A stretch of 34,175 nucleotides of DNA, from the NCBI GenBank assembly GCA_026397115.1, contig JAPLVM010000044.1, forward strand, positions 1 to 34,175, read 5' to 3'. This DNA comes from Patescibacteria group bacterium. GTDB lineage: Bacteria; Patescibacteriota; Gracilibacteria; JAPLVM01. Under the pieces are notes generated by a model. The model made no database searches. It saw nothing but the letters and a program-made list of their open reading frames with translations, and was not told the DNA's origin. This document shows positions 6,993 to 33,114 of the stretch, piece by piece; position 1 is the first letter of the stretch, and each line of letters starts with the position of its first letter. Made by a program: the position numbers and the translations under genes.

Positions 6993-8690
6993 TTAAAAAA
7001 CTGTCTTCTGATAACACTCCTCGCAATAAATCTTTTCTGGACGGTCAGGTGCAAACGGCGTTTCAAACTCAACACTACAGCCGAGGTTAGCGCAGGAACG
7101 GTGCCACAAACGCAAAGGATTAAGCTGTTTTAATCGCATTTCATATCGCAAATCAGGATGCAATCGAGGAAGGGGCAATCCAGCGCGACGGTAAAATGCC
7201 AGCTCGGCTTTTTGAATGATAAATGGCCTCTTGGTTTCCGCGCACTCAATCGCCCAATTCAAAATTTCATCAGGCACCTCTGAAATTGAAATTGGTAATT
7301 TGGAAGCTGGAATAATTTTTGCTACTTTTGGAATTTCAATTTTCTCATCAAGCCATTCAAATCCATGTTGAACCGCTTTTTCTTTTGTTATGGGAAAATG
7401 ATCATAGGCAATACTTTCATTATAAGCAAATGGCGAAATGCTAGAAGGAAAAAATTTTGCCCATTCACCTGTCTTTTCCATGTGTGAAATAATCTTTGCA
7501 ATCAGTTCACTGTATTCCTGTTTAGAATATTTTTTATTAAAAATGCAGTATTCTTGATGATTGTTCAGGCCATGGCATCCAAAGCAATTTTTAACATTCA
7601 TACAACTTTGACAATAAATCAGATTCTCGCACGCCCAAGATCGATGAGTAAAAAGACAAGAATAAGTGTCATTACCTATTTCACCGCAGTTATAAGCAAG
7701 ATTGATATTTGATCCCCACACAGATACATCCTGGCAGTCTTTGATACCATATTTGAGCCAAGCACAATATTTGCAATCTTCAGCGTCTTTCACAATAAAA
7801 GACTGGCTGCAATTCTTGCAATTTTCAAGCATATTACCCACCGACGCCTCACAGCTCAAAATATTCGCATATTTATGCGGAACCGAAAGATATATCTCAT
7901 AAGCTCTTTTTTTTGTATCTTCTATCGATGACGGCGTAAAGAAAAAATCTCTTAATCTATGTTCATATTCAGCGCGAGTTAATTTTTCATTAAACCAATA
8001 ATACTCTTTATTTCGAAGCTCACTACAACCAAAACAATTTGAACAACCATAACAGTAATGACAAAAATGACAGTTATTACAATCCTTCAAACTACGAGAG
8101 AAAAATGAATAATAGCAATTTATACCATCAACACATTCATAGCATAATTCCGCATGGTCTATATCTCGACAGTCAAAGCAATCACGCGAATACCACAATC
8201 CAGTGCAATACATGCAACACTCGCTTCCAGCAGCGTTAAAACACAGGTAACAGTTTTTTAGGCTATTACACCCATTGCAATATTCAGAATTTTCCATGCC
8301 CATAGTATCAACAAACGCGTGCGGATGAGGAACTTCGAGAGCCATTTCTCGAAATTGCTCAAAAAATTGCCTATTAAAATCAAAGTCACGACCCTGCCTC
8401 AATGGATCGTAATATTTGTCATCATGCCAAGCACTTATATGGTACACAGGAAATTTCACATCAGGCCTATGAGCTGAAATTATTGTTCTGCCTGTCGCAT
8501 CACACTTTCGTTTATAAATTTTACGAATATTACGAAAAGAAAGTCTGTGTATCAACCGACATTCTGGGCACATTTCCGGCTCAGGAATCGCAAATTTCTG
8601 ACCATTAAAAATTGGCGCAACTTTATCATGAAAAACACGATCTTCAGGGGCAACTTCAAACTGCGATTTACACTTTAAACAAGTTTTCAT
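6993..8690 (-). CDS. Cys-rich zinc-ribbon protein, array paralogue (565 aa), unknown function
   Basis: 565-aa ORF with N-terminus MKTCLKCKSQFEV.PED..F.DK..PIFNG.K...PEP..CPECR. The C-terminus WAIECAETKRPFIIQKAELAFYRRAGLPLPRLHPDLR is near-identical in pattern to 878..2575. Confidence 0.85.
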   Translation of the reverse strand: MKTCLKCKSQFEVAPEDRVFHDKVAPIFNGQKFAIPEPEMCPECRLIHRLSFRNIRKIYKRKCDATGRTIISAHRPDVKFPVYHISAWHDDKYYDPLRQGRDFDFNRQFFEQFREMALEVPHPHAFVDTMGMENSEYCNGCNSLKNCYLCFNAAGSECCMYCTGLWYSRDCFDCRDIDHAELCYECVDGINCYYSFFSRSLKDCNNCHFCHYCYGCSNCFGCSELRNKEYYWFNEKLTRAEYEHRLRDFFFTPSSIEDTKKRAYEIYLSVPHKYANILSCEASVGNMLENCKNCSQSFIVKDAEDCKYCAWLKYGIKDCQDVSVWGSNINLAYNCGEIGNDTYSCLFTHRSWACENLIYCQSCMNVKNCFGCHGLNNHQEYCIFNKKYSKQEYSELIAKIISHMEKTGEWAKFFPSSISPFAYNESIAYDHFPITKEKAVQHGFEWLDEKIEIPKVAKIIPASKLPISISEVPDEILNWAIECAETKRPFIIQKAELAFYRRAGLPLPRLHPDLRYEMRLKQLNPLRLWHRSCANLGCSVEFETPFAPDRPEKIYCEECYQKTVF

Positions 8691-8810
8691 TGGCTATATT
8701 ATGCAAGTAAAATCATTTTACAGATTTCATTACAACATTGTCCAATAAAATAAAAAATATTTATTATGTTAAAATAGCGCTGAAAATGCGAATCTAAAGT
8801 TGCGGCAAAT

Positions 8811-8901
8811 GGAGAGATGCCAGAGTGGTTGAACGGGCCGGTCTCGAAAACCGGTATTCCGCTTTGCGGGATCGAGGGTTCGAATCCCTCTCTCTCCGCC
8901 A
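8811..8901 (+). tRNA. tRNA-Ser (anticodon CGA), CCA encoded
   Basis: Acceptor stem is GGAGAGA/TCTCTCC and the anticodon stem-loop is CCGGT-CTCGAAA-ACCGG. It has a long variable arm, a T-arm GAGGGTTCGAATCCCTC and discriminator G plus CCA. It aligns well with E. coli tRNA-Ser as I recall it. Confidence 0.93.
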
Positions 8902-8947
8902 AATATGATGAACCATATTACTACATATAATTTAATCTAACTAAAAC

Positions 8948-9376
8948 ATGCGCTTGAATTACCTAATCCCAGCAGGATATATTTTAGCGTTAATCCTAGC
9001 GATCACGGGTTGCGCCAATACCAAAACAAAAGATTGCGAAACAATTGATAGGGTTAACTTGAACTTACCTTCTTATTTCTTATACGCCGACAAAAACATT
9101 GATATTCCTGAAAATTTACTTGTTTTTGGTCCAGCAATCTCACCAAACATCTTCGAAAATGAAATCATCTATAAAACAAACGGTTGGAATTTTTATTGCA
9201 AATCAAACTCAAAACCAGCACAAAAAATTGAGTATTTTTACTATAGCAAAGCCTGTATTATGGGGGCATGGCGTTATCGCTACGCCTATATTTGCGATGA
9301 CAAATATTATATTCTTGACGGCAGAGATGCTGGAGGCGTAAGACTATATGGACCATTTGACATCGCAAGCCAATAA
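8948..9376 (+). CDS. Small lipoprotein, unknown function (142 aa)
   Basis: Signal peptide with lipobox LAITGC. Confidence 0.6.
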   Translation: MRLNYLIPAGYILALILAITGCANTKTKDCETIDRVNLNLPSYFLYADKNIDIPENLLVFGPAISPNIFENEIIYKTNGWNFYCKSNSKPAQKIEYFYYSKACIMGAWRYRYAYICDDKYYILDGRDAGGVRLYGPFDIASQ

Positions 9377-9414
9377 AAAAGTCGTAAAAAAATAATCATT
9401 ATAAAATTTTGAAA

Positions 9415-11115
9415 ATGCTGAAAGACCAGATAATTAAACTGCTCATCAAAAAAAATATTATTACGGAAACCGAATCCTCTCATATCAGCGATGAGGGGCT
9501 GGAAGAATTTATGGTGAGAAGAGCAAATGACCTTAAAAAAATCCCCAAAACAATACCCAAAGAGCAAGCAGAAAAAATAAGAAGGATGCTTAGTTTAGAC
9601 TCACGCGAGAACAAAAAAGACAGGCCAGAAACAAGAAAGAAGGAAATCGAAAAAATCATACTGGAAATGCGCTCATACCTGAAACAATTTCAAACTAAAT
9701 GTCCTGAAGTAATCGGGATGATCCTTCTTGGAAGCAGAATTAATCCAAATAAAATTCCTTCTAAAAACAGCGATATTGATACAGTATTAATCCTGAAAGA
9801 AGGGTTCGAAGCAACTTCAAAAACAAGGGACGGACAGGCAATGGTTTGGAAATTAAGATCTTTTTCAGATAGCCTACTCACTGATTCTGGCTTGCAAGTT
9901 GAATTGGACGAATTCTACACAGCTGATAGATTTTTCGAAAAGCTAGATTCTAACGAGGATAAGAGCAAACTAATATGGGGCTGGCACCCAAAAGCAATAA
10001 GGTATATAGGAAGCAATATTGATGGAATGAATGAGGCTCAAGTCCAAACTCGCATTTTGCAAGCGCTGAACTCAAAAAAAATGCGAACGCTCAGAGAAGA
10101 AGTCATTACCAAAGCCAAAAAAACCATCTCAAAATATCTCTGTATGAAAAAAAATCATTCTACAAATAAACCCGCAAAAGAGCAGATCAATAAACCAAAA
10201 ATCATCACCTCTTACATTAACCCTGATTTGGACGCAGTGGCTTGCATCTTTGCCTATCAAGAATTTCTAACAAAAACTGGTTCTAAAGTAAAAATATGGC
10301 TAAATGGCAAACCACGCGACGAAGCCAAATTCATCATCAAAAAGTTTCATCTAAAACTCCCGAAATCAATAAAAAATCCAGCAAAAATTAATGAATTTAT
10401 CCTAGCTGATGCGAGCGACATACGCGGCATAGATCCAAAAATTCAGCTAAAACAAGTTATAGAAATCATCGACCACCGCGAAGTCCAAGACGCGCACCTC
10501 TTTCCAAATGCAAAAATACAAATCGAAAAAGTCGGCGCCGCAGCCACGCTGATCGCTGAGAAATTTTATGAAAAACGAATTACCCCATCAAAAGAATCTG
10601 CGATTTTACTTTATTCAGCCGTAATTTCAAATACATTAAATTTTCAGGCAAAGGTGGCTACTGATCGCGATCTTAAAATGTCAAAATGGCTTAAAAGCTG
10701 CGTGGAAATATCAGATTCCCTGCCCGAAGAAATGTTTGCCGCAAAATCTAATTTGAATGGCGAAAACTTAAAAGCTCGATTTCATCAAGAATTTGCATGG
10801 TTTGATCTTGCGAGTAAAAAGATCGGGATCGTTCAACTCGAAATTATAAATGGCGAAAAGCTCATTCTTGAGCGACATGCTGAGCTGATAGGAAATCTAA
10901 ATAATATTATAAAAAATTATCGTCTTGATTTCGGATTTGTAACAATAGTTGATCTAAACCACGGATGTAATTGGTTCATGACGGAAAACGCTAATATGCA
11001 AAAAATCCTGCATGAAATTTTCAAGATTAAATTTGAAAATAATGTCGCCGTAAAAAACAGCCTAATCATGAGGAAAGAGCTCGTCCCGCTAATCAAGAAA
11101 TATTTGGAGCAATAA
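9415..11115 (+). CDS. Fusion protein: N-terminal minimal nucleotidyltransferase-fold domain plus C-terminal DHH/DHHA2 domain (family II inorganic pyrophosphatase-like)
   Basis: NTase signature LLGS-x12-DID (nt ~9724-9790). The C-terminal ~300 aa align with family II PPase along their whole length (YINPDLDAVACIFAY; ILADASD; IIDHRE; KVGAAATLI; LYSAVISNTLNF; MRKELVP). The ORF track starts at TTG 9409; the first ATG is at 9415. Confidence 0.75.
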   Translation: MLKDQIIKLLIKKNIITETESSHISDEGLEEFMVRRANDLKKIPKTIPKEQAEKIRRMLSLDSRENKKDRPETRKKEIEKIILEMRSYLKQFQTKCPEVIGMILLGSRINPNKIPSKNSDIDTVLILKEGFEATSKTRDGQAMVWKLRSFSDSLLTDSGLQVELDEFYTADRFFEKLDSNEDKSKLIWGWHPKAIRYIGSNIDGMNEAQVQTRILQALNSKKMRTLREEVITKAKKTISKYLCMKKNHSTNKPAKEQINKPKIITSYINPDLDAVACIFAYQEFLTKTGSKVKIWLNGKPRDEAKFIIKKFHLKLPKSIKNPAKINEFILADASDIRGIDPKIQLKQVIEIIDHREVQDAHLFPNAKIQIEKVGAAATLIAEKFYEKRITPSKESAILLYSAVISNTLNFQAKVATDRDLKMSKWLKSCVEISDSLPEEMFAAKSNLNGENLKARFHQEFAWFDLASKKIGIVQLEIINGEKLILERHAELIGNLNNIIKNYRLDFGFVTIVDLNHGCNWFMTENANMQKILHEIFKIKFENNVAVKNSLIMRKELVPLIKKYLEQ

Positions 11116-12937: not shown

Positions 12938-14443
12938 GTGCCAACGAAAAAAAACACCTCAAAAATATCATCAGCCAAAATTGATAAACCCAAAAAACGA
13001 GTCGCTAAGCCGCAAGCAAATAAAGAAAGCGACACTGAGATTGCGGTAATTGTTAAAAAACCGATAACCAAAGTCGAAGAAGAAACCTTATTCCATAAAA
13101 AACCATCAAGCGAAACCAAGCCATTCCAATCAGATGAAATTTCAAGCAAGGAGCCTGAGCCAAAAGCAGAGGACCAAAATAAGCAAAATCCGATTCAGAA
13201 ATTTCAAATGCGCATCTCGCATTCCGGCAAAAAAGCACTTGCTATTTTTATTGCGCTTGCAGTTTGCTTGATCCTTTTGATTTCATTTATAACCCTTCCA
13301 ACCGCAACAATCTACATAGAGCCACGAACCACTGAGGAAATCTTTGCGACAAGTATTACATTTGCTGATCGCACAATCAATCAATATGACCTCTTAACTG
13401 AAAAGCCGAATTACATAGCTACAGAGACTCTGAGCTACACACTTGAGCTAACCAGTGAATATCCAGCGACAGGTGAGCTTTTTGAAGGCAAACCAGCACG
13501 CGGAGAAATCACTATTTACAACCGCGGTACAAAACCAAAAACATTTGTTCCAAGCCGCTTCAAAACACAAGATGATTTACTCTTTTGGATAGAATCAGAA
13601 GTCAAAGTACCAGAGCGTCTTGATGACGCAACCCCAGGATCAATTACAGTGCCAGCGCATGCCGCTGACTATGACACATTTGGCAGACCAATCGGCACTC
13701 GTGGCAATATACAAGCTGGTCAACAACTGACAATGCCGGCAATTCCATATCTCTCACCATTGCTTTATTACGGCGTAAATCATAAAGCATTCACTGGCGG
13801 CACAGCAATTAGCTCAAAAATCGTTCTTCAAGAAGATCTTGATCTTGCTCGTAAACGCATCGAAGAAGAGCTGACCAAAAAGACTATGAAACTAATGGAT
13901 GAGAAAATTATTGCACGCAACAAAGCTGAAAACCGCAATGATACTATGCTCATGGTAGATGGCAGTTATGATTACAAGGTTGAAGAGGTAAAAGTTGATA
14001 AAAACCTATTAGGTCAAAAACGTGCAACTTTTCCGGCCACTATAAAGTTAACTGTTACTGGGCGCGTATATAACCGCGATGATTTATACAGAATACTTGT
14101 TTCTGGGCTTCAGAGCAGAATCACGCCTGGCATGCATTTGGGCAAGGTTGATTTTTCAGGCATGGAAATGAACATTGCCGAACGCAATATCAAAAAAGAG
14201 CTCATCCGTATAAATACTGAAATACGCGGACTTACAATTTACGACTTTGATCCAGAAAATGAAACCGGTCAAGAGATGACAAAGCGCATCAGACAAAAAC
14301 TTGCTGGCCAGCAAGTTACATGGGCTGAGAAATATCTGCAAAACCTAACAGAAGTTGAAAACGCTGACATTGTTACATGGCCGTTTTGGCGAGATAAGCT
14401 GCCATCAGTAGAAAATAACATTGAAATTAAAGTAAAAAACTAG
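12938..14443 (+). CDS. Membrane-anchored protein, unknown function (501 aa): Lys-rich N-terminal tail, one TM helix, large extracytoplasmic domain
   Basis: GTG start in the ORF track; the first ATG is in frame at 13208. TM segment ALAIFIALAVCLILLISFITL. No motif I can name. Confidence 0.6.
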   Translation: MPTKKNTSKISSAKIDKPKKRVAKPQANKESDTEIAVIVKKPITKVEEETLFHKKPSSETKPFQSDEISSKEPEPKAEDQNKQNPIQKFQMRISHSGKKALAIFIALAVCLILLISFITLPTATIYIEPRTTEEIFATSITFADRTINQYDLLTEKPNYIATETLSYTLELTSEYPATGELFEGKPARGEITIYNRGTKPKTFVPSRFKTQDDLLFWIESEVKVPERLDDATPGSITVPAHAADYDTFGRPIGTRGNIQAGQQLTMPAIPYLSPLLYYGVNHKAFTGGTAISSKIVLQEDLDLARKRIEEELTKKTMKLMDEKIIARNKAENRNDTMLMVDGSYDYKVEEVKVDKNLLGQKRATFPATIKLTVTGRVYNRDDLYRILVSGLQSRITPGMHLGKVDFSGMEMNIAERNIKKELIRINTEIRGLTIYDFDPENETGQEMTKRIRQKLAGQQVTWAEKYLQNLTEVENADIVTWPFWRDKLPSVENNIEIKVKN

Positions 14444-24173: not shown

Positions 24174-27100
24174 ATGGCCGATAAATTCAACCTCATCTCC
24201 AATAACAAACCTACTGGCGACCAACCGCAAGCAATTATTAAACTTACCGAAGGCATTGACTCAAAAACTCACGACCAATTGCTGCTAGGAGTAACCGGCT
24301 CCGGCAAAACTTTTACCATGGCCAATGTAATCAATCATGTACAGAAACCAACTCTAGTCATGGCTCATAACAAAACACTTGCCGCCCAGCTCGCCAGCGA
24401 ATTTCGTGAACTTTTTCCAGAAAACGCAGTTGATTATTTTGTTTCATACTACGATTATTACCAGCCAGAAGCATATATTGCCAAAAGCGATACCTACATT
24501 GAGAAAGAAACCACTATCAACGAAGAAATAGATAAATATCGCCACAAAGCTACTTATGATCTTTTAACCCGCCAGGATGTAATTGTCGTAGCCTCAGTTT
24601 CGGCAATATACGGACTTGGATCACCAGAAGATTATATTGGTCTAGCCGTTACTGTGAGCAAAGGACAGAATATAGCTCGTGATGATTTTTTGCGTTCGCT
24701 GATCGCCATCCAATACCGCCGTGATGATTTTAAATTTTCTCGCGGAGCATTTCGTGTCCGAGGTGATATAGTCGAGGTTTTTCCGCCTATGTCTGATTCT
24801 GCTTTCAGACTTGAATTTTGGGGCAATGAAATAGAAAAAATCCAAGAAACCGATCATCTAACAGGACAAATTTTGAATGACGTGAAGCAAATTCTTTTCA
24901 TTCCTGCTAAACACGCCATTACCTCAGAAGAACGCATCGCTGAAATATTGCCAAAAATAAGGGAGGAAATGGATCTGCGCACAGCCGAGCTTAAAGCCAA
25001 TGGCAAAATCGTCGAAGCGCAAAGACTCATGCAAAGAACAATGTATGACATGGACATGCTTAAAGAAACTGGCTATGTAAATGGCATTGAAAACTATACA
25101 CGCTATTTAACCGGCGTCATGCCTGGTCAGCCGCCTTATACTTTACTTGATTTCTTTCCAAAAAAACCAGATGGCACTCGCGATTTCCTGCTTTTCATAG
25201 ATGAGTCACACATGACCGTGCCGCAGATCGGTGCCATGCATGAAGGTAATCTCTCCCGCAAACGCCAACTTGTCGAATACGGCTTCCGGTTGCCATCATC
25301 TTACGACAACAGGCCACTGACCTGGAAAGAATTTGAAGAGCGCATGCCACAAACCATTTATGTGAGCGCTACTCCGGGACACTATGAACTTTCAAAATGC
25401 GGGGTAAAAGGAGACTTATATGAATGGTTGAAAAATAATGAGTATTCTGAAAATGCCAATGATAAACTCACCAATCAGTGGTTTGTAATTAGGCACGGCG
25501 AGGCTGACCATAATATCACTAAAACTTATGTTAATGATATAAATAAAGATAATTCTCATTTAACCAAAAAAGGTATTAGGCAAGCCAAGGAATCAATTAA
25601 AGAATTAAAAAGGCTTGGCATAACTAAAATGTTTGCTTCAGACTTTATCCGTACTCGTGAAACAGCTGAAATTGTATCTGCTGGATTAGAACTGGAAACT
25701 ATTTTTGATCCACGGATTAGAGAAATCTTTCGCGGCGACTGGGAAGGAACGGTTTATGATCCACCTCCGCGAGACTGGGACAAGTGGGCCGAAAATATAG
25801 ATTTTGCCGAAACGGGTGAAACGCAAAAACAGGTACGCCGAAGAATGAAAGATTTTATCTTAGAAAAGAACCAGGAATTATCTGGAGAAAAAATATTGCT
25901 TGTATCACACAGCGGCTCCATGAAATGCTTGCTTTCAGAATTGCAGGATAAATCTTATCCGAAGAAGATACATGATGAAATGCGTAACTGCGAGATACAA
26001 AATTTTTCATCTATCGTTGACAGCTATTTGAATTCGTCAAATCAAAAGCCAAAAGTCATTATCCTGCACGGAGCGCCAACAAAAGATCGAAGCAATGAGC
26101 CAAATTATGTTCCAGATAATGTTCGCCATTGGCTCGGCTGGCTTAAAGAAAATCTTGAACAAAATGGATTTTCTGTCACAAATCCACAAATGCCTATTCC
26201 ATGGCAACCCGAATATGAAAATTGGAAAAAGGAAATCGAAAAACTGGATATTGACGAAAATACTACTTTGGTTGGAACAAGCGCTGGCGGTACATTTTGG
26301 GTCAGATGGTTAGGCGAAACTAAAAAACGGGTTAAGAACCTGTTTTTAATTGCCCCATCAAAAATAAAGTGGGAAGAACGTCATTATCTTAATGATTTTG
26401 TTAATTTTGAAATTGATCCAGAAATAAAAAATCGCGTTGAAAACATAATAATTTTTGTATCAAACGATAGCCCAGGTATCATTCAAAGTTGTAAAATTTA
26501 CAAAAAAGCACTTTTAGCCAAACTCATTAAACTCGAAAATCGCGGACATTTCACTGCCTTCAATAACCCTGAAAACAAAAAATTCCCTGAACTCCTAAAA
26601 GAAATTCTACATTATACTAAAGACCTGAAACGAAAAAAAATAGAGTTAGGCAATAAAAATAATGATCAAGAAACACCTAGAATAATCCAACAAATTATTA
26701 GACCTACCGGACTTCTTGACCCAGAAATCTCTATTCATCCAATTGATGGACAAATCGACCATTTACTTGAAAAAATTCGCCTACGAATTAAGGCAGGTGA
26801 AAGAACACTTATTACAACTCTTACCAAAAAAACATCTGAAAAGCTTACTGACTTTCTGCGAGAAAATGGATTTAAAGTTGAATATCTACACAGTGAAGTT
26901 GAAACCCTAGACAGAATTAAAATACTCCGCGATCTTCGCCTCGGTGAAATTGACATAATCGTTGGAATAAACCTACTCCGCGAAGGAATTGATCTACCTG
27001 AAGTTTCACTCGTTGCCATTCTCGACGCTGACAAAGCCGGATTCCTGCGTTCGCGCGATGCGCTCCTTCAAACCATAGGCAGAACCGCCAGAAACGTAAA

Positions 27101-27437
27101 CGGACAAGTCATAATGTATGCCAACATAATTACACCTGCTATGCGCCAAGCCATTGACGAAACCAACCGCCGTCGCAAAATGCAAGCCGCATATAATGAA
27201 AAACATCACATCACTCCAACAACGATTATCAAAAAGATCGCTGATCTTGAATTTAAAAAGGCCGAGGGCCTCAAGAGAGAAAAACGGAAGAAAGAGGAAT
27301 ACTTTACATATCTCGACGACGATGGAAAACAGAAATATATTGGGGAGTTGGAGCGTCAAATGGATCTTGCCGTGCAAAATATGGAGTTTGAAAAAGCTGC
27401 TGAGCTCAGAGACGAGATTGCAGAGCTTATGAAGTAA
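24174..27437 (+). CDS. uvrB: Excinuclease ABC subunit B (UvrB) with a ~424-aa two-domain insertion (1087 aa in total)
   Basis: N-terminal part: [42 protein letters not shown]. C-terminal part: [70 protein letters not shown], and a UVR motif at the end. Confidence 0.93.
   Translation: [1087 protein letters not shown]
25404..26675 (+). other. In-frame insertion within uvrB: histidine-phosphatase (PGAM-like) domain (~25476..26009) plus alpha/beta serine-hydrolase domain (~26049..26618)
   Basis: PGAM-like domain: RHGEADHN (RHG at 25491), [22 protein letters not shown]. Hydrolase domain: [14 protein letters not shown], GxSxG nucleophile elbow GTSAGG (26274), late D (FVSNDSP) and GHF. The flanking residues YELSKCG and [15 protein letters not shown] are contiguous in ordinary UvrB. 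Confidence 0.8.
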
Positions 27438-27535: not shown

Positions 27536-27985
27536 TTACAGACACAAACCATCCTTACAGCTATTGCATTGAAAATTGTAGGTTTGAACTACGGGACCAG
27601 TAGATTTACTGTAGCAATAACTGTCTTCTTCAAAGCATTTGCTACCAGCGCATGAGTTAACCATGGTTCTATTAAGCGCATCCTTGATACGCGCTGTATA
27701 GCATTGATCCTTAAAGTTTAGCTTGGCAATCTTACCTTGGGCATTTTTAAAAGTCATGGTGGCTACTCCTTTTACATTTGCAACCTTACCGTCATCTGAA
27801 TCTTGACATTTTGTAGCATCATAACCTGTAAGATTTACATTACCATCAGCCATCATTGCGTCACCTTCACCGGAAGTCACATCTCCGGACAACCAGCTCG
27901 GATTCATACGTACGCCGATAACAGCAATCACAGCAATTGCAAGTATGACGGCAGCTCCGATAATAGTTTTAGTTTTTGTTTGCAT
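27536..27985 (-). CDS. Membrane-anchored or secreted Cys-containing protein (149 aa)
   Basis: N-terminal hydrophobic helix IIGAAVILAIAVIAVIGV and 8 Cys in the C-terminal half. Strong SD AGGAGGTG. Confidence 0.65.
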   Translation of the reverse strand: MQTKTKTIIGAAVILAIAVIAVIGVRMNPSWLSGDVTSGEGDAMMADGNVNLTGYDATKCQDSDDGKVANVKGVATMTFKNAQGKIAKLNFKDQCYTARIKDALNRTMVNSCAGSKCFEEDSYCYSKSTGPVVQTYNFQCNSCKDGLCL

Positions 27986-28054: not shown

Positions 28055-30025
28055 TTATTTTTTGTCAATATTGATTTTTTTGGTCACCTCAGCTGTCTTT
28101 CCATCAAGATCTCGAACCATAAGATACACCTCATAACTCCCAGCCGCGTTATAAACATGCCTCACATGAGGCTCTTCAGTTACTGCATTTGCCCCATCAC
28201 CAAAATCCCATTGATATTTTTGAATATTATTATCAGGATCAGATGACGCTCCTGCATCAAAATCAATCTCCAAATCGCTAATTTCATCTGCACGAAAATC
28301 AGCTGTCGGAGCTACTGGAACAATATGAATTTTTGACAAAGACGATTGATAAAAACCGTCATATTGCCCACCAGATTCATCAGTTGCAGACAATCGTATT
28401 TCATATTCACCAAGCTCAGCAAAACGATGCGTAATACGACGACCACGCATTAACACTGACCCATCACCAAAATCCCAAGTAAAAGACATTCCACGATCTG
28501 AGCCGTCTGAGCGCAAAGAAGGAGCCGCATCAAAAGTAAATACTTGGTTGCGATAACCTTCTTTTGGGTCTGAGGTAAAATCAGCCACAGGCGCGCCAGA
28601 ATCAGACACAAAAACGCGATATGAATCAGATGCTTTACGATTATTTTTATCAACCGCAGATAAGCTCACTGTATAAATTCCAGGCTGACTAAATGTGTGA
28701 GAAACCACTTTTTTGCCAGCGCCATTCTGCCCGCTAGACCCATCGCCAAAATCCCAAATATAATTACTTACAATAGTCTCATCCAAACCAGTCGAAGAAT
28801 AATCTCCTGCGTGCGCTGTAAACATAAAATCCGCAGGCGCAATTTTAATCTTATCAGTATTTAAAATTTCAACTGATAAAAGCGATTCCAAAACGTATTC
28901 AATTTTTTGCGACACCTGATATTTATATTCATCACCACCAGAATAATAATTATAGCTATTATTATTTTCATCCTTTTTTACGCGCGCCTCACATTCAATA
29001 TTATAAGTTCCAATTGCCGGTAAAGTATACCAGCCAAAAGTTTTATTTGCTGACGTATTTTCGTCCTTTTTTTCAAAAGTAATCTCTTGATCGTCAACTC
29101 GCCATGCGAATTCTTGCTCGCCTGATGAATAAAATTTAGTTTTACTGGCATCTAAATAAACATGCGCTGGATACTTTTTATCAGGCACAATCTCGCAAGA
29201 AACCTCTGGGGCCTTTTCAGAAATAGTGACTTTATAAGCTTTATTCGCCAAAGTATCAGAATTTATTGCAGTCAGATTCAGATCATAAGTTCCTGGGGCA
29301 TCATAAGACAAAATAGGGTCTTTACCAGCAATGTCATAATCATTAGCTGCCACACCATCGCTATCAGAATCAATCGCCATATTTGTATCCCAAACAAAAT
29401 AATCACCATTTTCAACCTTTAAATTAATTTGAAACTTTTCATTCACATATAAATCCTGCACAGGCTGACCATCAACACTATAAGACAGACCAACAAATTT
29501 AATCGCTCCTGTATGCGGTAACACTTTTGGCTTATCAGTTTTAGCGCCATTCGCATCAAGCTCAACCGGAGTTCCAACGATCAAATGCGGGCTAACTTCA
29601 CTATCAGCAATAACTGTGCGTCCAGTTCCAGCCGCATTAACAAAGCTTGCGGAACCAGAAACAATTGCCGTAGCACCAGTTCCATTTTTACTCAAATCTA
29701 TGCCAACTTTACCGGTTCCAAAACTTGTAGCGCCAGTATTGGAAAGAGCGCCTTCTTCCTTTACCGCAGATCCTGAGCCCATCAGGTTTGTTGTTTCTTG
29801 CTGTGTTTGACTCTCTTTTATGACTTCCGGCTCATCAGCTGAAAAAGCATTAATCACAAAAATGCTGATGATACCTAAAATAAGCATGCCAACACCAAAC
29901 GCAACCACTCGTAAATAACGACCAGACTCTTCAACACTTTCCGAGCGCCAAGCGCGAAAGCCGCCAAGCCCAGCAAAGGCTGCTCCTCCGACAATAAATA
30001 TAATTGGGAAAATAATTGCAAACAT
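28055..30025 (-). CDS. PKD-repeat membrane protein (656 aa)
   Basis: Two N-terminal TM helices and at least three PKD signatures: WDFGDGSSG, WDFGDGSV and WDFGDGAN. Confidence 0.8.
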   Translation of the reverse strand: MFAIIFPIIFIVGGAAFAGLGGFRAWRSESVEESGRYLRVVAFGVGMLILGIISIFVINAFSADEPEVIKESQTQQETTNLMGSGSAVKEEGALSNTGATSFGTGKVGIDLSKNGTGATAIVSGSASFVNAAGTGRTVIADSEVSPHLIVGTPVELDANGAKTDKPKVLPHTGAIKFVGLSYSVDGQPVQDLYVNEKFQINLKVENGDYFVWDTNMAIDSDSDGVAANDYDIAGKDPILSYDAPGTYDLNLTAINSDTLANKAYKVTISEKAPEVSCEIVPDKKYPAHVYLDASKTKFYSSGEQEFAWRVDDQEITFEKKDENTSANKTFGWYTLPAIGTYNIECEARVKKDENNNSYNYYSGGDEYKYQVSQKIEYVLESLLSVEILNTDKIKIAPADFMFTAHAGDYSSTGLDETIVSNYIWDFGDGSSGQNGAGKKVVSHTFSQPGIYTVSLSAVDKNNRKASDSYRVFVSDSGAPVADFTSDPKEGYRNQVFTFDAAPSLRSDGSDRGMSFTWDFGDGSVLMRGRRITHRFAELGEYEIRLSATDESGGQYDGFYQSSLSKIHIVPVAPTADFRADEISDLEIDFDAGASSDPDNNIQKYQWDFGDGANAVTEEPHVRHVYNAAGSYEVYLMVRDLDGKTAEVTKKINIDKK

Positions 30026-30040
30026 TGAAATTTTTTAAGA

Positions 30041-30748
30041 TTAGGATTCAGGAATAGGCTGGCAGCAGCTGTCAATGCAAGTACCTTGCTTGTTGAAACC
30101 GTTAACCTTTATATATTTACAATCCTCTTCTGCGCCACATGACCCATAATCACATTCAAAACTTGGGAAAGGATCCTCTATCGGTTGGCAGCATCCATCA
30201 GTACAGATTCCTTCCTTGAGTAAGCCATGCACCTGTATCAAAACGCAATCCAAATTGCTCTCGCATATTTTATACTCACACCCAGTCGTTCCAGGTGTAG
30301 CATTATCCACATCAACATTACCAGAAGGCAAACCCTTAACCAACAAGCGAGTTAGCGCAAAGGCAACTGTCACAATAACCAAACCAAAAATAGCATATCG
30401 CATGGAAGCCAATCCCTTTTTCGCTTTATCAGCATCGCTCCAAGCAGTCAAATATTCCCATCCGCTATAAAAAGCCGCTACCAAAAGCATGACAGCCACA
30501 AAGCCCAGGAAAAAATCAAGATATTTACGCACAGAAACCATAATATCATAATCCTCACCACCAGAAGCAGTCAGCGCATTATCATAGCGACCAGCAGAAG
30601 GCATCCGAAATCCAGAATCAAATGAGTTCCACGCAGGAAAAGTCCCTTGCGCAGCCATAGCCAAAGGCATATTCAAAATCACCACGCACAAAGCTATCCA
30701 CCCTAGAAATCCTGCTATTTTTACTGAAAATTTGTTATTAAACTTCAT
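30041..30748 (-). CDS. VirB2/TrbC-like (T4SS-pilin-like) membrane protein with two C-terminal 6-Cys modules (235 aa)
   Basis: Signal peptide, then a two-helix hairpin GFVAVMLLVAAFYSGWEYLTAWSDADKAKKG...AIFGLVIVTVAFAL. The tail is CEYKICESNLDC...GICTDGCCQPI followed by CDYGSCGAEEDC...GTCIDSCCQPI (nt 30053..30280). Confidence 0.65.
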   Translation of the reverse strand: MKFNNKFSVKIAGFLGWIALCVVILNMPLAMAAQGTFPAWNSFDSGFRMPSAGRYDNALTASGGEDYDIMVSVRKYLDFFLGFVAVMLLVAAFYSGWEYLTAWSDADKAKKGLASMRYAIFGLVIVTVAFALTRLLVKGLPSGNVDVDNATPGTTGCEYKICESNLDCVLIQVHGLLKEGICTDGCCQPIEDPFPSFECDYGSCGAEEDCKYIKVNGFNKQGTCIDSCCQPIPES

Positions 30749-30755
30749 GTTTATT

Positions 30756-31175
30756 TTACTTGATTAGATCCTTAATCACTGTATTTATAATCGCATAAGC
30801 GCCAAAAATAATCATTGCTCCTACTACAACTTGCCAGATAATTTTTCCTGATGTCTTGGTTTTATCAGCATCACCCATAGCTGACAAACTCTGCCAAGCC
30901 GCATAAATAATATAAATCAAGGCTACAACAGCAATAAATCCTACCGCCCAGTTTGTCCAATAAATAATTACATCTTGAGCTGTACCCTGAGAAGCCTGTT
31001 CTTGCTCCTTATCTGTTGAATACAGGAACTGATATCCTTGGCCAGGCTGAGCCTCACGTGGAATAGCCAAACCATCATTTTGAGGAATTTGACTAAACTG
31101 AGCAGCTAAAGTTGGAGTTACTCCAACTAATAATGCAAGTGATAGTCCGATACCAGCCAGCAGATACTTAATCAT
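30756..31175 (-). CDS. VirB2/TrbC-like (T4SS-pilin-like) membrane protein, no Cys tail (139 aa from the ATG at 31175)
   Basis: Signal peptide, then WTNWAVGFIAVVALIYIIYAAWQSLSAMGDADKTKTSGKIIWQVVVGAMIIFGAYAIINTVI. The ORF-track TTG start at 31193 abuts the upstream stop; the ATG at 31175 is preferred. Confidence 0.65.
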   Translation of the reverse strand: MIKYLLAGIGLSLALLVGVTPTLAAQFSQIPQNDGLAIPREAQPGQGYQFLYSTDKEQEQASQGTAQDVIIYWTNWAVGFIAVVALIYIIYAAWQSLSAMGDADKTKTSGKIIWQVVVGAMIIFGAYAIINTVIKDLIK

Positions 31176-31193
31176 TTTTATTGTTACAAACAA

Positions 31194-31700
31194 CTATGAT
31201 CCTATGCCGCAACAACCTTGTTTAGTACAATTATGAATTACAAGCCCACCATACTGCTTACAATCAGCATCCACGCGACACGGATATTCGCAACCCTTAC
31301 CCTTAATGAAGGTATTAACAATCGCATACGCAGAAATAATGATTATAATTCCAATAATGGCCTGTATAATGATATTTGTACCTTTTTTCGTGCCATCCTC
31401 ATCTCCTGCAGCAGTCATGTACAAAAAGCCACCATATACAATAAAGCCAATCGCAACTACAGCCACGAATCCAAGCGCAAAGTTAGTCCAGCCAACAATA
31501 GCATCTATTAAAGAAACATTACCAGTCTCAACTCCTTGCAAATCTTGAAACTCCTCAGGAATTGAAAAAGATAATGGCTCTTTATTAGCATCACAGCCAT
31601 AAACAGAATCACAGGTTCCAACCGCATAAACGCTGGAAATGCTAACCAATCCAAAAAACATTACCGCAATCGAAACTATAAATATCCAAAACCTAGACAT
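31194..31700 (-). CDS. VirB2/TrbC-like (T4SS-pilin-like) membrane protein with one C-terminal 6-Cys module (168 aa from the ATG at 31700)
   Basis: Signal peptide, then WTNFALGFVAVVAIGFIVYGGFLYMTAAGDEDGTKKGTNIIIQAIIGIIIIISAYAIVNTFI. The tail is CEYPCRVDADCKQYGGLVIHNCTKQGCC (nt 31197..31295). Confidence 0.65.
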   Translation of the reverse strand: MSRFWIFIVSIAVMFFGLVSISSVYAVGTCDSVYGCDANKEPLSFSIPEEFQDLQGVETGNVSLIDAIVGWTNFALGFVAVVAIGFIVYGGFLYMTAAGDEDGTKKGTNIIIQAIIGIIIIISAYAIVNTFIKGKGCEYPCRVDADCKQYGGLVIHNCTKQGCCGIGS

Positions 31701-31732
31701 ATTGATGTTTATTTTTAACAATTTTTCATTTA

Positions 31733-31761
31733 ATTATATCAGACTGAACCTGAAAAAACAA
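31733..31761 (-). promoter_or_regulatory. Candidate promoter for the pilin-like operon: TTGTTT-17 nt-TATAAT with an extended -10 (TGATATAAT)
   Basis: Read on the minus strand between the rpsA stop (31795) and the 31700 start. Confidence 0.4.
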
Positions 31762-31794: not shown

Positions 31795-33114
31795 TTATTT
31801 ATCAGCTTTTTTCTTGACCACCTTTTTCACGATCTTCTTGTCAGGTACTGACTTATTCGACTTTGACTTTTCTTCATCTATGCTAATTTCCTCTTCGTCC
31901 TTTGCTTTTTTAGCCTTAATCTTCTTGCCATCTTCTTTCTCTTCTTCCGAAGAATCAACTGCTGTGCGTTTCTTACCCTTTGACCCAGGTTTAAGCTCTT
32001 TAATGCTAAGACCTATACGATGATCTTCAAGCTGAATATCAATAATTTTCGCCTTTACAATATCGCCGATTTTCACAACATCTTCGACTCTATTTGGCTC
32101 AGGATCAGCAAGCTCAGACTTATGAATCAAACCATTGACCTCATCATTTAATCTTGCAAAGGCGCCATAATCAACTATCTGTGCAATTGGACACTCAATA
32201 ACATCGCCCAAACTAAATTTAGAAGCAGCTGTAACCCATGGATCCTCAACTAATCTCTTCATTGAAAAAGCAACCCTATTTATATCAGCAGACAAAACCA
32301 TTACTTCAATTTCATCCCCTTCACGAGCATAATCGCGTGGATTTTGTACTCTTTCCCAGGCAATCTCAGAAATATGCACGAGTCCCTCAATACCTCCAGG
32401 AATAGAAATAAAAATACCAAAATGTGAAAATCCTGAAACTCTGCCTTTGATAATCTGACCGGCAGACAGTTTATCCAATATTTTAGTGCGCTCGCCTTCA
32501 TGTGCTTTACGTTCGGAAAAAATCAATTTTCCCTGCTCCTGATCAGCTACCATTACGCTTACTTTCAAGTCCATGGCTATCAATTTCTTCAACTTCTCCA
32601 AAATCATCTCTGAATTTGAATTTTCCACGCGAGGATAGTGTTGCGGCATCAGCTGAGAAACAGGAATAAAACCACGAATACCATCCATATCACAAATTAA
32701 ACCACCACGATTTGCCACTGTTGGCTTAACTTTGAAAGTATCGCCGCTCTGGATCGCCTTCTTAAATCTATCCCAAGCTGAAATCTGCGTAGCCTTACGC
32801 AAAGAAAGAATAAAATTACCGTCTTCATTTTCTGGCTCAACAAGTACTGCTTGAATTGGATCGCCAACTCTCAAACTGGCAGCTGTACCCAAAGAATCCT
32901 TTGTCTCACGTCCAGGAATAAGCCCTGTAAACATACCGTCCATCAAATCTACAATAATCGCATTTTTTGTGATTGCAGTAATAACGCCGGAGACAAGATC
33001 ACCAAGCTTAGCATCAAAAACCTGTCCTTTTTTTTGCGACAGTAAATCATCCATGGAAGATTTGGCAGGTTTTTGGATTTTGATGTTGGCGTTGGCTTTA
33101 GTTTGGGTAGCCAT
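31795..33114 (-). CDS. rpsA: 30S ribosomal protein S1 (four S1 domains) with a Lys/Glu-rich C-terminal tail
   Basis: Repeated S1 OB-fold signatures (G..V.G.V......G..V......GL.H.SE....) occur four times. The tail is KKRTAVDSSEEEKEDGKKIKAKKAKDEEE...KKVVKKKADK. Confidence 0.85.
   Translation of the reverse strand: MATQTKANANIKIQKPAKSSMDDLLSQKKGQVFDAKLGDLVSGVITAITKNAIIVDLMDGMFTGLIPGRETKDSLGTAASLRVGDPIQAVLVEPENEDGNFILSLRKATQISAWDRFKKAIQSGDTFKVKPTVANRGGLICDMDGIRGFIPVSQLMPQHYPRVENSNSEMILEKLKKLIAMDLKVSVMVADQEQGKLIFSERKAHEGERTKILDKLSAGQIIKGRVSGFSHFGIFISIPGGIEGLVHISEIAWERVQNPRDYAREGDEIEVMVLSADINRVAFSMKRLVEDPWVTAASKFSLGDVIECPIAQIVDYGAFARLNDEVNGLIHKSELADPEPNRVEDVVKIGDIVKAKIIDIQLEDHRIGLSIKELKPGSKGKKRTAVDSSEEEKEDGKKIKAKKAKDEEEISIDEEKSKSNKSVPDKKIVKKVVKKKADK

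What the first reader, a model, noticed from the sequence alone, without database searches (positions are those of the whole stretch)
30041..31721. Three tandem VirB2/TrbC-like pilin paralogues carrying 0, 1 or 2 copies of a C-terminal 6-Cys module
All three proteins share a signal peptide and a two-helix hairpin: W(T/.)N....GF.AV........Y.G...(L/M)(T/S)A..D.D..KKG.......(I/V).G..I.....A(I/L), with a short charged loop. This is the layout of conjugative-type (VirB2/TrbC) pilins, and of the T4SS-pilin family described in CPR genomes as I recall it. After the second helix, which would be extracellular in VirB2 topology, the first gene adds one module, C-E-Y-x-C-x5-C-x10-C-x5-CC. The second gene adds none. 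The third adds two, CEYKICESNLDC..GICTDGCCQPI and CDYGSCGAEEDC..GTCIDSCCQPI (30053..30280). A modular, disulfide-knot-like tip on pilin subunits would be a way to vary the adhesive end of a filament. No VirB4, VirB6 or VirD4 genes are in this window.
Basis: partly seen in the sequence, partly recalled or inferred. Interest (0 to 1): 0.6.

Follow-up and report, generated by a model that had tools for sequence, protein, structure and literature searches.

The report
Pilin-like proteins with six-cysteine tails
Three neighbouring genes of an ultra-small (Patescibacteria-type) bacterium encode pilin-like membrane hairpins of a type IV secretion system, and two of them end in one or two copies of a small six-cysteine module that I could find nowhere else; it is probably a disulfide-locked surface decoration, so the pilin family is known but this tail is new.

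Summary
Three tandem minus-strand genes (P1 31194-31721, P2 30756-31193, P3 30041-30748) share a signal peptide and a two-helix hairpin. They carry 1, 0 and 2 copies of a C-terminal 6-Cys module.

The hairpin belongs to Pfam PF18895 (T4SS_pilin, VirB2-like). P1 passes the curated cut-off. P2 and P3 are confirmed by 31-50% identity among the three hairpins (each at least 40% to P1), by a class-specific HMM (63, 51 and 36 bits) and by AlphaFold (hairpin pLDDT about 90).

The 0.95-Mb genome has about 13 hairpin genes, one VirB4-like ATPase and two VirD4-like ATPases, all on other contigs.

Tandem VirB2-like pilin arrays are already published for Patescibacteria. The 6-Cys module is not. It matched no Pfam family, 1.84 billion representative proteins, about 460 genomes of the phylum or two DNA-pattern scans of public contigs. 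It gave no significant fold match either.

Topology places the module outside the cell. Mature Cys counts are even (8, 0, 12).

Relatives in the same class often fuse the same hairpin to huge C-terminal PKD-repeat ectodomains, sometimes with small Cys modules directly after the hairpin. Here a PKD protein is the next gene.

Best reading: decorated pilin-like subunits displaying disulfide mini-domains. An adhesive role is inferred, not shown.

The parts
31194..31721 (-). P1: pilin-like gene with one C-terminal 6-Cys module. The ORF runs from TTG 31721. The likely start is ATG 31700, giving 168 aa, a signal peptide of about 26 aa (cleavage after VYA) and a mature protein of 142 aa with 8 Cys.
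   Evidence: ORF list. PF18895 35.7 bits, above cut-off. Start and promoter read. Signal peptide and Cys counts.
31308..31499 (-). P1 two-helix hairpin (T4SS_pilin domain). The loop is AAGDEDGTKKG.
   Evidence: Genome-wide PF18895 scan. Kyte-Doolittle segments.
31209..31292 (-). P1 6-Cys module CEYPCRVDADCKQYGGLVIHNCTKQGCC (C-x3-C-x5-C-x10-C-x4-CC), net charge 0.
30756..31193 (-). P2: bare pilin-like gene, 145 aa from a TTG that directly follows the P1 stop (or 139 aa from ATG 31175). It has no Cys and no C-terminal module. Hairpin at 30780-30983.
   Evidence: Class-specific hairpin HMM 51.5 bits.
30041..30748 (-). P3: pilin-like gene of 235 aa with two C-terminal 6-Cys modules. Signal peptide about 32 aa (AMA|AQ). 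Hairpin at 30344-30520. The mature protein has 12 Cys.
   Evidence: AlphaFold hairpin helices 69-100 and 106-139 at pLDDT about 90.
30188..30280 (-). P3 module 1, CEYKICESNLDCVLIQVHGLLKEGICTDGCC(QPIED). It follows a 17-aa linker after helix 2. Net charge -5.
30062..30154 (-). P3 module 2, CDYGSCGAEEDCKYIKVNGFNKQGTCIDSCC(QPIPES). Net charge -4. AlphaFold on this module alone gives mean pLDDT 81, with one short helix and four short strands.
31733..31761 (-). Promoter-like site upstream of P1: TTGTTT, 17 nt, then TGaTATAAT (extended -10). It lies in the 73-nt gap after the S1 protein gene.
   Evidence: Read by eye. The consensus scan did not list it because the -35 matches only 3 of 6 positions. 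Function is inferred.
28055..30025 (-). Next gene, starting 15 nt after the P3 stop and in the same frame, separated by TAA-TCT-TAA. It encodes a 656-aa membrane protein with an N-terminal two-helix hairpin and no signal peptide, followed by about 4 PKD domains. It is probably co-transcribed.
   Evidence: PKD_4 6e-49. Sequence. Its N-terminal hairpin shows no detectable homology to pilin hairpins. Its first 260 aa have no relatives in the database.

Best explanation
P1, P2 and P3 are paralogous VirB2-like 'T4SS_pilin' (PF18895) subunits of the type IV secretion apparatus typical of Patescibacteria.

Proposed steps:
1. Each protein is exported by a cleavable signal peptide.
2. It inserts as a helix-loop-helix hairpin with the short charged loop on the cytoplasmic side and both ends outside.
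3. P2 is a bare subunit.
4. P1 carries one, and P3 two, roughly 31-aa modules on the outward-facing C-terminus. Each module's six cysteines form three disulfides, giving a rigid acidic-to-neutral mini-domain.
5. If the VirB4-type machine encoded elsewhere in the genome extracts the hairpins into a filament or stalk, as it does for VirB2 pilins, the modules would stud the outer surface and act as a stabilising or host-binding decoration.
6. They would work together with the PKD-repeat membrane protein encoded directly downstream.

What is shown: family membership, topology logic, modular copy number, conservation of the Cys frame, and the absence of the module elsewhere.

What is inferred: disulfide bonding, filament assembly, co-transcription with the PKD gene, and any adhesive role.
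For: - Family. PF18895 is above the cut-off for P1 and sub-threshold for P3 and P2. NF045849 gives 26-34 bits for all three. A hairpin HMM from nine same-class proteins gives 63, 51.5 and 36 bits. The closest relatives of P1 are all PF18895 proteins.
- Fold. AlphaFold predicts helices 69-100 and 106-139 at pLDDT about 90.
- Topology. A positively charged N-terminus, a signal-peptide h-region with A-x-A-type cleavage sites, and two hydrophobic helices put the C-terminus outside.
- Cysteine parity. Mature Cys counts are even (8, 0, 12).
- Selection. The two P3 copies are saturated at third codon positions, yet keep all six Cys plus Y, D, G and CCQPI.
- Module model. pLDDT is 81 in all five models.
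- Machinery. There is a VirB4-like ATPase on contig C72 (P-loop_TraG 98.9 bits) and two VirD4-like hits.
- Precedent for C-terminal cargo on this hairpin. Nine proteins from other genomes (eight from same-class genomes, one from the unclassified metagenome contig L025) have the hairpin near the N-terminus followed by a long tail: 671-3109 aa in the eight same-class ORFs and about 1500 aa in L025. In the seven for which Pfam results are in hand the tails carry PKD repeats, 6-9 matched stretches in five of the six scanned here. Two of them carry tandem small Cys modules directly after the hairpin.
- Literature. The T4SS and its pilin array are essential in Southlakia epibionticum (PMC10633639). 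VirB2-like arrays of 2-11 genes occur in 383 Patescibacteria assemblies, and no adhesin was found (PMC12102498). In solved pili the loop faces the lumen (PMC12037004).
Against: - P2 and P3 fail the Pfam gathering score on their own.
- The trio is not next to virB4, which lies on another contig. No VirB6 or VirB3 was identified.
- No VKOR or DsbA-type oxidase was found in the 90%-complete genome. The only related find is a thioredoxin-fold (CPHC) domain fused to a DsbD_TM-like membrane domain (25.7 bits, just below the 27.1-bit Pfam cut-off), a type usually working in the reducing direction.
- The module is known from a single genome, so there is no comparative evidence on its function.
- No filament made of PF18895 proteins has been seen in any organism.
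- Fold searches with the full model return only generic helical hairpins.
Confidence: 0.6

Rival explanations
1. The hairpin is only a membrane anchor. P1 and P3 would be ordinary bitopic-like surface proteins that hold small disulfide domains at the cell surface, and the neighbouring protein would hold PKD repeats there. They would never be polymerised by a T4SS. The trio would be a set of envelope proteins that merely share ancestry with pilins.
For: - The trio is not linked to virB4.
- The same genome has multi-hairpin proteins with 3 or more hairpins in one chain on contig C46. These cannot be simple pilus subunits.
- Relatives attach ectodomains of up to about 3100 aa to one hairpin, which is hard to pack into a VirB2-type helical filament.
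- No PF18895 filament has been observed, and the CPR filaments solved so far are of another kind (Pam pili, PMC13278184).
Against: - The hairpin retains the VirB2-like layout and loop.
- Pilin arrays are essential and sit inside the T4SS cluster in S. epibionticum (PMC10633639).
- Bare subunits such as P2 sit next to decorated ones, which fits a major-subunit plus minor-subunit arrangement.
Confidence: 0.27
2. The Cys module is a C-terminal pro-piece. As in TrbC and TrhA pilins, whose C-terminal residues are clipped at maturation, the tail would be cleaved off and released as a free 6-Cys peptide. It could act as a defensin-like toxin or a signal towards the host bacterium.
For: - C-terminal processing of VirB2-family pilins is established. 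TrhA loses 5 residues and a similar process is reported for TrbC (PMC12037004).
- The Cys order C..C..C..C..CC recalls beta-defensin-type peptides (my own recollection, not tested).
- The best, non-significant, Foldseek neighbours are scorpion CS-alpha/beta toxins.
- There is a weak Nodulin_late (NCR peptide) hit, E 0.2-0.4.
Against: - The modules are neutral to acidic (net charge 0, -5, -4), unlike cationic antimicrobial peptides.
- No stand-alone copy of the module was found in any search.
- No recognisable cleavage motif was seen, and no dedicated TraF-like maturase was looked for.
- All structural and HMM similarities are above E = 0.1.
Confidence: 0.08
3. The cysteines bind metal (a Zn or Fe-S type cluster) rather than forming disulfides. 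Alternatively, the similarity among the tails is a chance or low-complexity effect.
For: Six clustered Cys can bind metals. No dedicated disulfide oxidase was found.
Against: - The predicted location is extracytoplasmic.
- There are no His or CxxC pairs typical of zinc ribbons.
- There are three copies with the same frame and additional conserved non-Cys residues, despite saturated synonymous sites.
- The pattern occurs only here among 3798 open frames (60 aa or more) of the genome.
Confidence: 0.04

Closest known systems
VirB2-like pilin arrays of Patescibacteria T4SS (Pfam PF18895 T4SS_pilin), e.g. the essential pilin genes in the S. epibionticum T4SS cluster SEML1_0006-0019; 441 arrays of 2-11 genes reported in PMC12102498
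   Same: Same domain family. Signal peptide plus helix-loop-helix. Tandem, strongly diverged paralogues (here 31-50% identity in the hairpin). Small genome with VirB4 and no obvious relaxase context.
   Different: Published arrays are described as plain small pilins. Here two of the three carry a modular 6-Cys C-terminal extension. The trio lies apart from virB4 and next to a PKD-repeat protein.
Classical conjugative pilins VirB2/TrbC/TraA/TrhA (Pfam PF04956)
   Same: Same topology: signal peptide, two hydrophobic helices and a short charged loop. The termini lie on the outer face of the assembled pilus. A C-terminal segment beyond helix 2 exists in some precursors.
   Different: PF04956 scores only E about 0.2 here. 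There is no sequence match to solved pilins. Classical C-terminal segments are short and are removed or cyclised, not folded Cys-rich domains.
Hairpin-PKD fusion proteins of the same class (loci L207-L214) and of metagenome contig L025, found here
   Same: Same hairpin (P1 is 28% identical to the L025 protein across signal peptide and hairpin). Cargo sits at the C-terminus of helix 2. PKD repeats are present in the same gene or operon. In L213 and L211 small tandem Cys modules directly follow the hairpin.
   Different: There the cargo is 670-3100 aa in one chain. Here the chain stops after 1-2 mini-modules and the PKD repeats are on a separate protein with its own, non-homologous-looking, two-helix anchor.
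Pfam DUF7107 (PF23416)-type 4-Cys repeats, C-x5-C-x5-C-x4-C
   Same: Position directly after the pilin hairpin. Tandem copy-number variation (5 and 2 copies in relatives). Shared C-x4-D-C core (hhalign, 9 columns).
   Different: Four rather than six Cys, no terminal CC, and a much shorter third loop. hhalign probability is only 22%. The window modules give no DUF7107 hit in Pfam at a reporting limit of E 10 (HMMER's filters drop most matches above about 0.1).
Small disulfide-rich miniproteins (beta-defensin-like C..C..C..C..CC frame; CS-alpha/beta scorpion toxins; plant NCR peptides)
   Same: Size of about 30-40 aa, six Cys, a predicted short helix plus a small beta-sheet. The top Foldseek hits are scorpion K+ channel toxins at TM about 0.5.
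   Different: No significant sequence or structure match (E 1.6 or worse; Nodulin_late E 0.2-0.4). Lacks the CxxxC/CxC signature of CS-alpha/beta. Acidic rather than cationic. Covalently attached to a membrane hairpin.

Membership tests
Pfam PF18895 T4SS_pilin (VirB2-like pilins of CPR and monoderm T4SS) | HMM score at or above the gathering cut-off (26.6 bits) | tested here: met
   P1 scores 35.7 bits and 38.6 bits in the genome scan. P3 (20.7-23.5) and P2 (10.3-13.7) are below the cut-off alone, but their hairpins are 40% and 50% identical to that of P1 and score 36 and 51.5 bits with a same-class hairpin HMM.
Pfam PF18895 T4SS_pilin | Signal peptide followed by two hydrophobic helices joined by a short charged loop | tested here: met
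   Hydropathy segments and A-x-A-type cleavage sites. AlphaFold helix-loop-helix at pLDDT about 90.
Patescibacterial T4SS pilin array | Tandem divergent pilin genes in a genome that encodes VirB4 | tested here: met
   Three tandem genes. VirB4-like 943-aa ATPase on contig C72 (P-loop_TraG 98.9 bits, AAA_10).
Patescibacterial T4SS pilin array | Location near virB4 or other T4SS genes (true for about 58% of assemblies in PMC12102498) | tested here: not met
   No T4SS gene was found among the 24 larger ORFs of the 34-kb contig that were scanned, and the genome-wide searches place VirB4 on C72 and the VirD4-like genes on C10 and C11. The assembly is fragmented (95 contigs), so true distances are unknown.
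Conjugative pilin in the functional sense (VirB2/TraA) | Polymerises into an extracellular lipid-containing filament | not testable with these tools
   Needs microscopy or biochemistry. No PF18895 filament structure appeared in the literature searches.
Pfam PF04956 TrbC/VirB2 | HMM score at or above the cut-off (27.9 bits) | tested here: not met
   12.5 and 12.0 bits for P1 and P2, none for P3.
Pfam DUF7107 (for the Cys module) | HMM or profile match over the module | tested here: not met
   No Pfam hit for the isolated modules at a reporting limit of E 10, although HMMER's filters drop most matches above about 0.1. hhalign to the 4-Cys repeats of relatives aligns 9 columns at probability 22%.
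Defensin-like, CS-alpha/beta or knottin miniproteins (for the Cys module) | Characteristic Cys signature and a significant fold match | tested here: inconclusive
   The Cys frame is C-x3/4-C-x5-C-x10/13-C-x3/4-CC. The best Foldseek PDB hits are scorpion toxins at E 1.6-3.6 and TM 0.4-0.5. BFVD gives nothing. Disulfide connectivity is unknown, and no AlphaFold DB library was available.

The most novel reading that the evidence does not exclude
In Patescibacteria the VirB2-like hairpin may be a general display handle for the essential T4SS. Its outward-facing C-terminus, and in other lineages its N-terminus, would carry exchangeable cargo ranging from 30-aa disulfide mini-domains (this window) to 3000-aa PKD-repeat adhesins (relatives). 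These decorated subunits would be the host-binding adhesins that published surveys reported as missing. This window would show the minimal and 'split' form: hairpin plus Cys modules, then the PKD protein as the next gene in the same frame. The 6-Cys unit would be a lineage-specific new fold that sets host specificity.
Probability: 0.3. Interest if true: 0.75.

Novelty: new variant of a known kind. Interest (0 to 1): 0.5.

Why it matters
The T4SS and its pilin array are essential for the epibiotic life of the only genetically tractable Patescibacterium. What the system touches on the host is unknown, and a 3,035-genome survey found no adhesin.

Pilin-like subunits that carry folded extracellular cargo are concrete candidates for the contact surface. 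The cargo here is a copy-number-variable 6-Cys mini-domain. In relatives it is huge PKD-repeat arms.

The window gives a very small, experimentally convenient example: 30-40 aa modules that can be synthesised or expressed, tested for disulfide pattern and binding, and used as epitopes to ask whether PF18895 proteins really form filaments.

If the module is merely a lineage-specific ornament of one uncultured genome, the practical value is modest.

Tried and rejected
1. Word-based search of 5.8 billion proteins. P3 found only itself. P1 found 14 plain PF18895 pilins without the module.
2. Exhaustive phmmer of the tandem module against 1.84 billion representatives. There were four hits besides the window's own P3, all repetitive low-complexity proteins with summed repeat scores and no 6-Cys frame. 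I rejected them as spurious.
3. Module profile in 60 same-class genomes and 400 phylum genomes. The only hits were weak (E 8e-4 to 0.1 per genome). The two from the phylum search that I inspected (L203, L204) lie in short frames with no pilin hairpin upstream and without the full 6-Cys frame; L203 also overlaps a longer ORF in another frame.
4. The search for related loci with the module alignment in genome contigs and metagenome contigs found nothing.
5. Degenerate DNA pattern for the Cys frame gave 50 genome hits and 116 metagenome hits. All were out of frame, interrupted by stops, or in unrelated Cys-rich or eukaryote-like repeats. None lay downstream of a hairpin. The pattern required TGT for the first Cys, so TGC-starting copies would be missed.
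6. Pfam, NCBIfam and PDB-sequence searches of the modules and the hairpin profile found no domain for the module and no solved relative.
7. Foldseek with the full P3 model returned only generic helical hairpins. The archaeal conjugation pilin 8dfu was at rank 27, E 2.6.
8. I tested the idea that the window's PKD protein starts with a degenerate pilin hairpin. hhalign, Pfam and the class HMM all fail to support it, so I left it as a topological resemblance only.
9. I tested the idea that P1-P3 belong to a special 'fusion-type' hairpin subfamily. The same HMM scores the 13 hairpin-bearing open frames of the genome, several of them higher than P1, so I rejected it.
10. I looked for a disulfide oxidase. 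There is no VKOR and no DsbA-type hit.
11. The 978-aa protein between the multi-hairpin genes on C46 could not be identified.
Full report
**What is there**

The window is a whole 34,175-bp contig (C69) of a 946-kb, 95-contig, roughly 90%-complete genome. On the minus strand, downstream of a ribosomal protein S1 gene (31795-33114), lie three tightly packed ORFs:
- P1, 31194-31721
- P2, 30756-31193
- P3, 30041-30748

They are followed after 15 nt by a 656-aa protein with about four PKD domains (28055-30025).

The P1 stop is directly followed by the P2 TTG. P3 starts 7 nt after the P2 stop. The PKD gene is in the same frame as P3, separated by TAA-TCT-TAA-AAA-ATT-TCA.

A TTGTTT-17-TGaTATAAT promoter-like site lies at 31761-31733. 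That makes the ATG at 31700 the likely P1 start, giving 168 aa (read). The fifth gene (27536-27985) has its own TTGATT-17-TATAAT box and a GGAGG ribosome-binding site. It is probably a separate unit.

**The hairpin**

Each protein has three parts:
- a positively charged N-terminus with a signal-peptide-like hydrophobic stretch and a small-x-small cleavage site (VYA|V, LAA|Q, AMA|A);
- a 35-45 aa hydrophilic segment;
- two hydrophobic helices joined by a short D/E/K-rich loop.

Support for family membership:
- Pfam PF18895 (T4SS_pilin) scores 35.7 bits for P1 (cut-off 26.6), 20.7 for P3 and 10.3 for P2. PF04956 (TrbC/VirB2) is only marginal.
- NCBIfam NF045849, the mycoplasma-ICE pilin-like conjugal protein, gives 26-34 bits for all three, below its cut-off of 40.
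- The hairpins are 50% (P1-P2), 40% (P1-P3) and 31% (P2-P3) identical.
- An HMM that I built from nine hairpins of other genomes (eight of the same class, one from metagenome contig L025) scores P1 at 63, P2 at 51.5 and P3 at 36 bits.
- AlphaFold2, with a 21-sequence alignment, predicts helices 69-100 and 106-139 of P3 at pLDDT about 90.

Sequence and fold searches against solved structures give nothing specific, because a helical hairpin is too generic. Family membership is therefore well supported for P1 and, through P1, for P2 and P3.

**The Cys module**

| Copy | Sequence | Cys frame |
|---|---|---|
| P1 | CEYPCRVDADCKQYGGLVIHNCTKQGCC | C-x3-C-x5-C-x10-C-x4-CC |
| P3 module 1 | CEYKICESNLDCVLIQVHGLLKEGICTDGCC-QPI | C-x4-C-x5-C-x13-C-x3-CC |
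| P3 module 2 | CDYGSCGAEEDCKYIKVNGFNKQGTCIDSCC-QPI | C-x4-C-x5-C-x13-C-x3-CC |

The two P3 copies are 45% identical in protein and 58% in DNA. Third codon positions are only 42% identical, against 65-68% at positions 1 and 2. The duplication is therefore old and the frame has been kept by selection.

With a cleaved or uncleaved signal peptide plus two helices, the C-terminus is extracytoplasmic. The mature proteins have 8, 0 and 12 cysteines. Even numbers are what all-disulfide domains require.

AlphaFold2 on one module, with the other two copies as its alignment, gives mean pLDDT 81 in all five models. It predicts a short helical turn and four short strands.

**Is the module known or found elsewhere?**

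No, by every route I had:
- No Pfam family at a reporting limit of E 10 except Nodulin_late at E 0.4, with the caveat that HMMER's filters drop most matches above about 0.1.
- Exhaustive phmmer of the tandem module against 1.84 billion representative proteins returned, apart from the window's own P3, only four repetitive artefacts.
- The k-mer search of 5.8 billion proteins found only P3 itself.
- The module profile was absent from 60 same-class and 400 phylum genomes, apart from a handful of weak hits; the two from the phylum search that I inspected have no pilin hairpin upstream and lack the full 6-Cys frame.
- Alignment-derived and hand-written degenerate DNA patterns gave only chance matches in the species-representative genomes and the metagenome contigs.
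- Foldseek with the module model gave no significant hit. The best were scorpion CS-alpha/beta toxins at E 1.6-3.6 and TM about 0.5. The viral structure library gave nothing.

The nearest genomes held are only 'same class'. The lineage is isolated, which partly explains why the module looks like an orphan.

**Context in the genome**

PF18895 hairpins are abundant: about 20 matches in 13 hairpin-bearing open frames. They include pairs on C43 and C47, singles on C34 and C95, and four multi-hairpin proteins on C46 that flank an unidentifiable 978-aa protein.

A VirB4-like ATPase of 943 aa lies on C72 (P-loop_TraG 98.9 bits, AAA_10, weak CagE_TrbE_VirB). Two VirD4/TraG-like matches lie on C10 and C11.

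I found no VKOR and no DsbA-type oxidase. The only related find is a thioredoxin-fold (CPHC) domain fused to a DsbD_TM-like membrane domain (25.7 bits, just below the 27.1-bit Pfam cut-off). How disulfides would be introduced is open.

**Context in relatives**

The closest relatives of P1 (up to 57% identity) are plain pilins. At most they have short Gly/Ser/Thr-rich tails. Several sit in 3-7-gene arrays, as published.

One relative (P0013) is followed by a 1624-aa protein. Its N-terminus is a signal peptide plus a PF18895 hairpin (27.7 bits) that is collinear with P1 (28% identity, E 5e-5). The rest of that protein carries PKD domains in the precomputed Pfam list.

I followed this up. All 40 sampled genomes of the class have 4-20 hairpin matches. 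Eight long ORFs (858-3247 aa) from eight genomes have the hairpin near the N-terminus and 671-3109 aa after it. All six that I scanned are T4SS_pilin (above cut-off) followed by PKD domains, 6-9 matched stretches in five of them and one in the sixth.

Other members carry their cargo N-terminally or have 3-5 hairpins in one chain.

In two fusions (L213, L211) the hairpin is followed directly by five or two tandem 4-Cys repeats of the form C-x5-C-x5-C-x4-C. The L213 repeats hit Pfam DUF7107. These repeats share only a C-x4-D-C core with the window module (hhalign, 9 columns, probability 22%).

So the order 'hairpin, small Cys modules, PKD repeats' found in single chains of relatives is mirrored here by P3 followed by the PKD gene. 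However:
- two stop codons separate the two genes;
- the PKD protein has its own two-helix N-terminus;
- that N-terminus shows no detectable homology to pilin hairpins;
- its first 260 aa have no relatives at all.

**How it most likely works**

Shown:
- family membership;
- the topology logic;
- modular copy number of 1, 0 and 2;
- purifying selection on the frame;
- absence of the module elsewhere;
- precedent for C-terminal cargo on this hairpin.

Inferred: the modules are oxidised to three disulfides each and are displayed on the outer face of the membrane. If the VirB4 machine polymerises the hairpins, they would be displayed on the outer face of the filament.

In solved VirB2-type pili the inter-helix loop lines the lumen (PMC12037004), so the termini point outward on every subunit. 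A C-terminal module would then coat the shaft rather than form a tip, unless P1 and P3 are minor or terminal subunits and P2 is the bulk subunit.

A binding or stabilising role is plausible because:
- the T4SS and its pilin genes are essential for epibiotic growth in S. epibionticum (PMC10633639; review PMC12857230);
- no adhesin was detected in a 3,035-genome survey (PMC12102498);
- the same hairpin carries PKD-repeat arms in relatives.

None of this was tested here.

**Rivals**

- *The hairpin is only a membrane anchor and no filament forms (about 0.27).* This is favoured by the multi-hairpin proteins and by cargo sizes that seem hard to pack into a pilus.
- *The module is a cleaved pro-piece released as a defensin-like peptide (about 0.08).* C-terminal clipping is known for TrhA and TrbC pilins (PMC12037004). 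Against it, the modules are neutral to acidic (net charge 0, -5, -4) and no free-standing copies exist.
- *Metal binding, or chance (about 0.04).* This is disfavoured by the extracytoplasmic location and by conserved non-Cys positions.

**Comparison and novelty**

Tandem, highly diverged VirB2-like pilin arrays in Patescibacteria are published: 441 arrays of 2-11 genes with mean identity 25% (PMC12102498). That part of the finding is already known.

My literature searches found no description of Cys-rich or PKD-bearing VirB2-like pilins. The recently solved CPR 'Pam' pili are an unrelated Ig-fold system (PMC13278184).

Earlier unverified notes of this scan had seen Cys-rich ectodomains on such hairpins in other CPR genomes. 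My results agree with that theme. They add the C-terminal, copy-number-variable mini-module and the hairpin-PKD fusions.

I therefore class the finding as a new variant of a known kind. Interest is moderate. The module itself is confined to one uncultured genome and its function is inferred. It does belong to a wider, apparently undescribed habit of hanging extracellular cargo on the T4SS pilin hairpin.

**Limits**

- There was no AlphaFold-DB-scale fold library.
- Model coordinates could not be inspected, so disulfide pairing could not be read from the model.
- The DNA pattern scans required TGT for the first cysteine.
- The genome is fragmented, so the distance from the trio to virB4 is unknown.

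Noticed in passing
loci L207-L214 (genomes G001, G003, G024, G016, G027, G030, G040, G026) and L025:8423-13297: Giant proteins (858-3247 aa) consisting of a signal peptide, a PF18895 pilin hairpin near the N-terminus and then PKD domains (6-9 matched stretches in five of the six scanned). They occur in at least 8 of 40 sampled genomes of the class. I found no published description.
   Followed up: partly
L213:4169-8440 (protein residues 137-266) and L211:3200-7276 (protein residues 160-211): Five and two tandem 4-Cys repeats (C-x5-C-x5-C-x4-C; Pfam DUF7107 in L213) sit directly after the pilin hairpin and before the PKD repeats. This is the same position as the window's 6-Cys modules, but homology is not demonstrable.
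   Followed up: partly
own genome contig C46 (locus L011) 901-7863, minus strand: Four proteins of 280-387 aa carry one to four pilin hairpins in one chain (three of them three or more). They flank a 978-aa protein with no Pfam or PDB match. This may be the core of the T4SS membrane part (VirB6-like?), and it is unlinked to VirB4 on C72.
   Followed up: partly
window 28055-30043: The PKD-repeat gene starts 15 nt after the P3 stop, in the same reading frame, with two TAA codons between. Its product begins with a two-helix hairpin without a signal peptide. The order is collinear with the fused hairpin-Cys-PKD proteins of relatives, which suggests an old gene fission or fusion.
   Followed up: partly
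window 27536-27985 (-): A 149-aa protein with an N-terminal membrane anchor and an ectodomain with 8 Cys. It has its own promoter-like box (28045-28017) and a GGAGG ribosome-binding site, and no family match.
   Followed up: no
window 24174-27437 (+): A UvrB of 1087 aa with a histidine-phosphatase (His_Phos_1) domain and a serine-hydrolase domain inserted between its helicase lobes.
   Followed up: no
own genome contig C72 (locus L016) 7620-9481: An AAA_21 (AbiEii-like ATPase) and RloB-like gene pair lies directly downstream of the VirB4-like gene. It is possibly a defence or toxin-antitoxin-type module.
   Followed up: no
own genome contig C72 (locus L016) 13073-14164 (-): A secreted thioredoxin-fold domain with a CPHC motif is fused to a DsbD_TM-like (CcdA-type) membrane domain (25.7 bits, just below the 27.1-bit Pfam cut-off). 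It is the only extracytoplasmic thiol-redox candidate found, and the genome has no VKOR or DsbA hit.
   Followed up: partly
window 31590-31612 (P1 residues C37 and C43 of the 175-aa ORF): P1 has an extra Cys pair (C-x5-C) near its mature N-terminus. Distant relatives P0015 and P0016 have a similar pair (C-x6-C) at the same place. It may form a small N-terminal disulfide loop.
   Followed up: no
window 31661 versus 31700 versus 31721: The public gene call for P1 (155 aa) starts at an internal Met inside the signal peptide. The ATG at 31700 fits the promoter and gives a complete signal peptide.
   Followed up: partly
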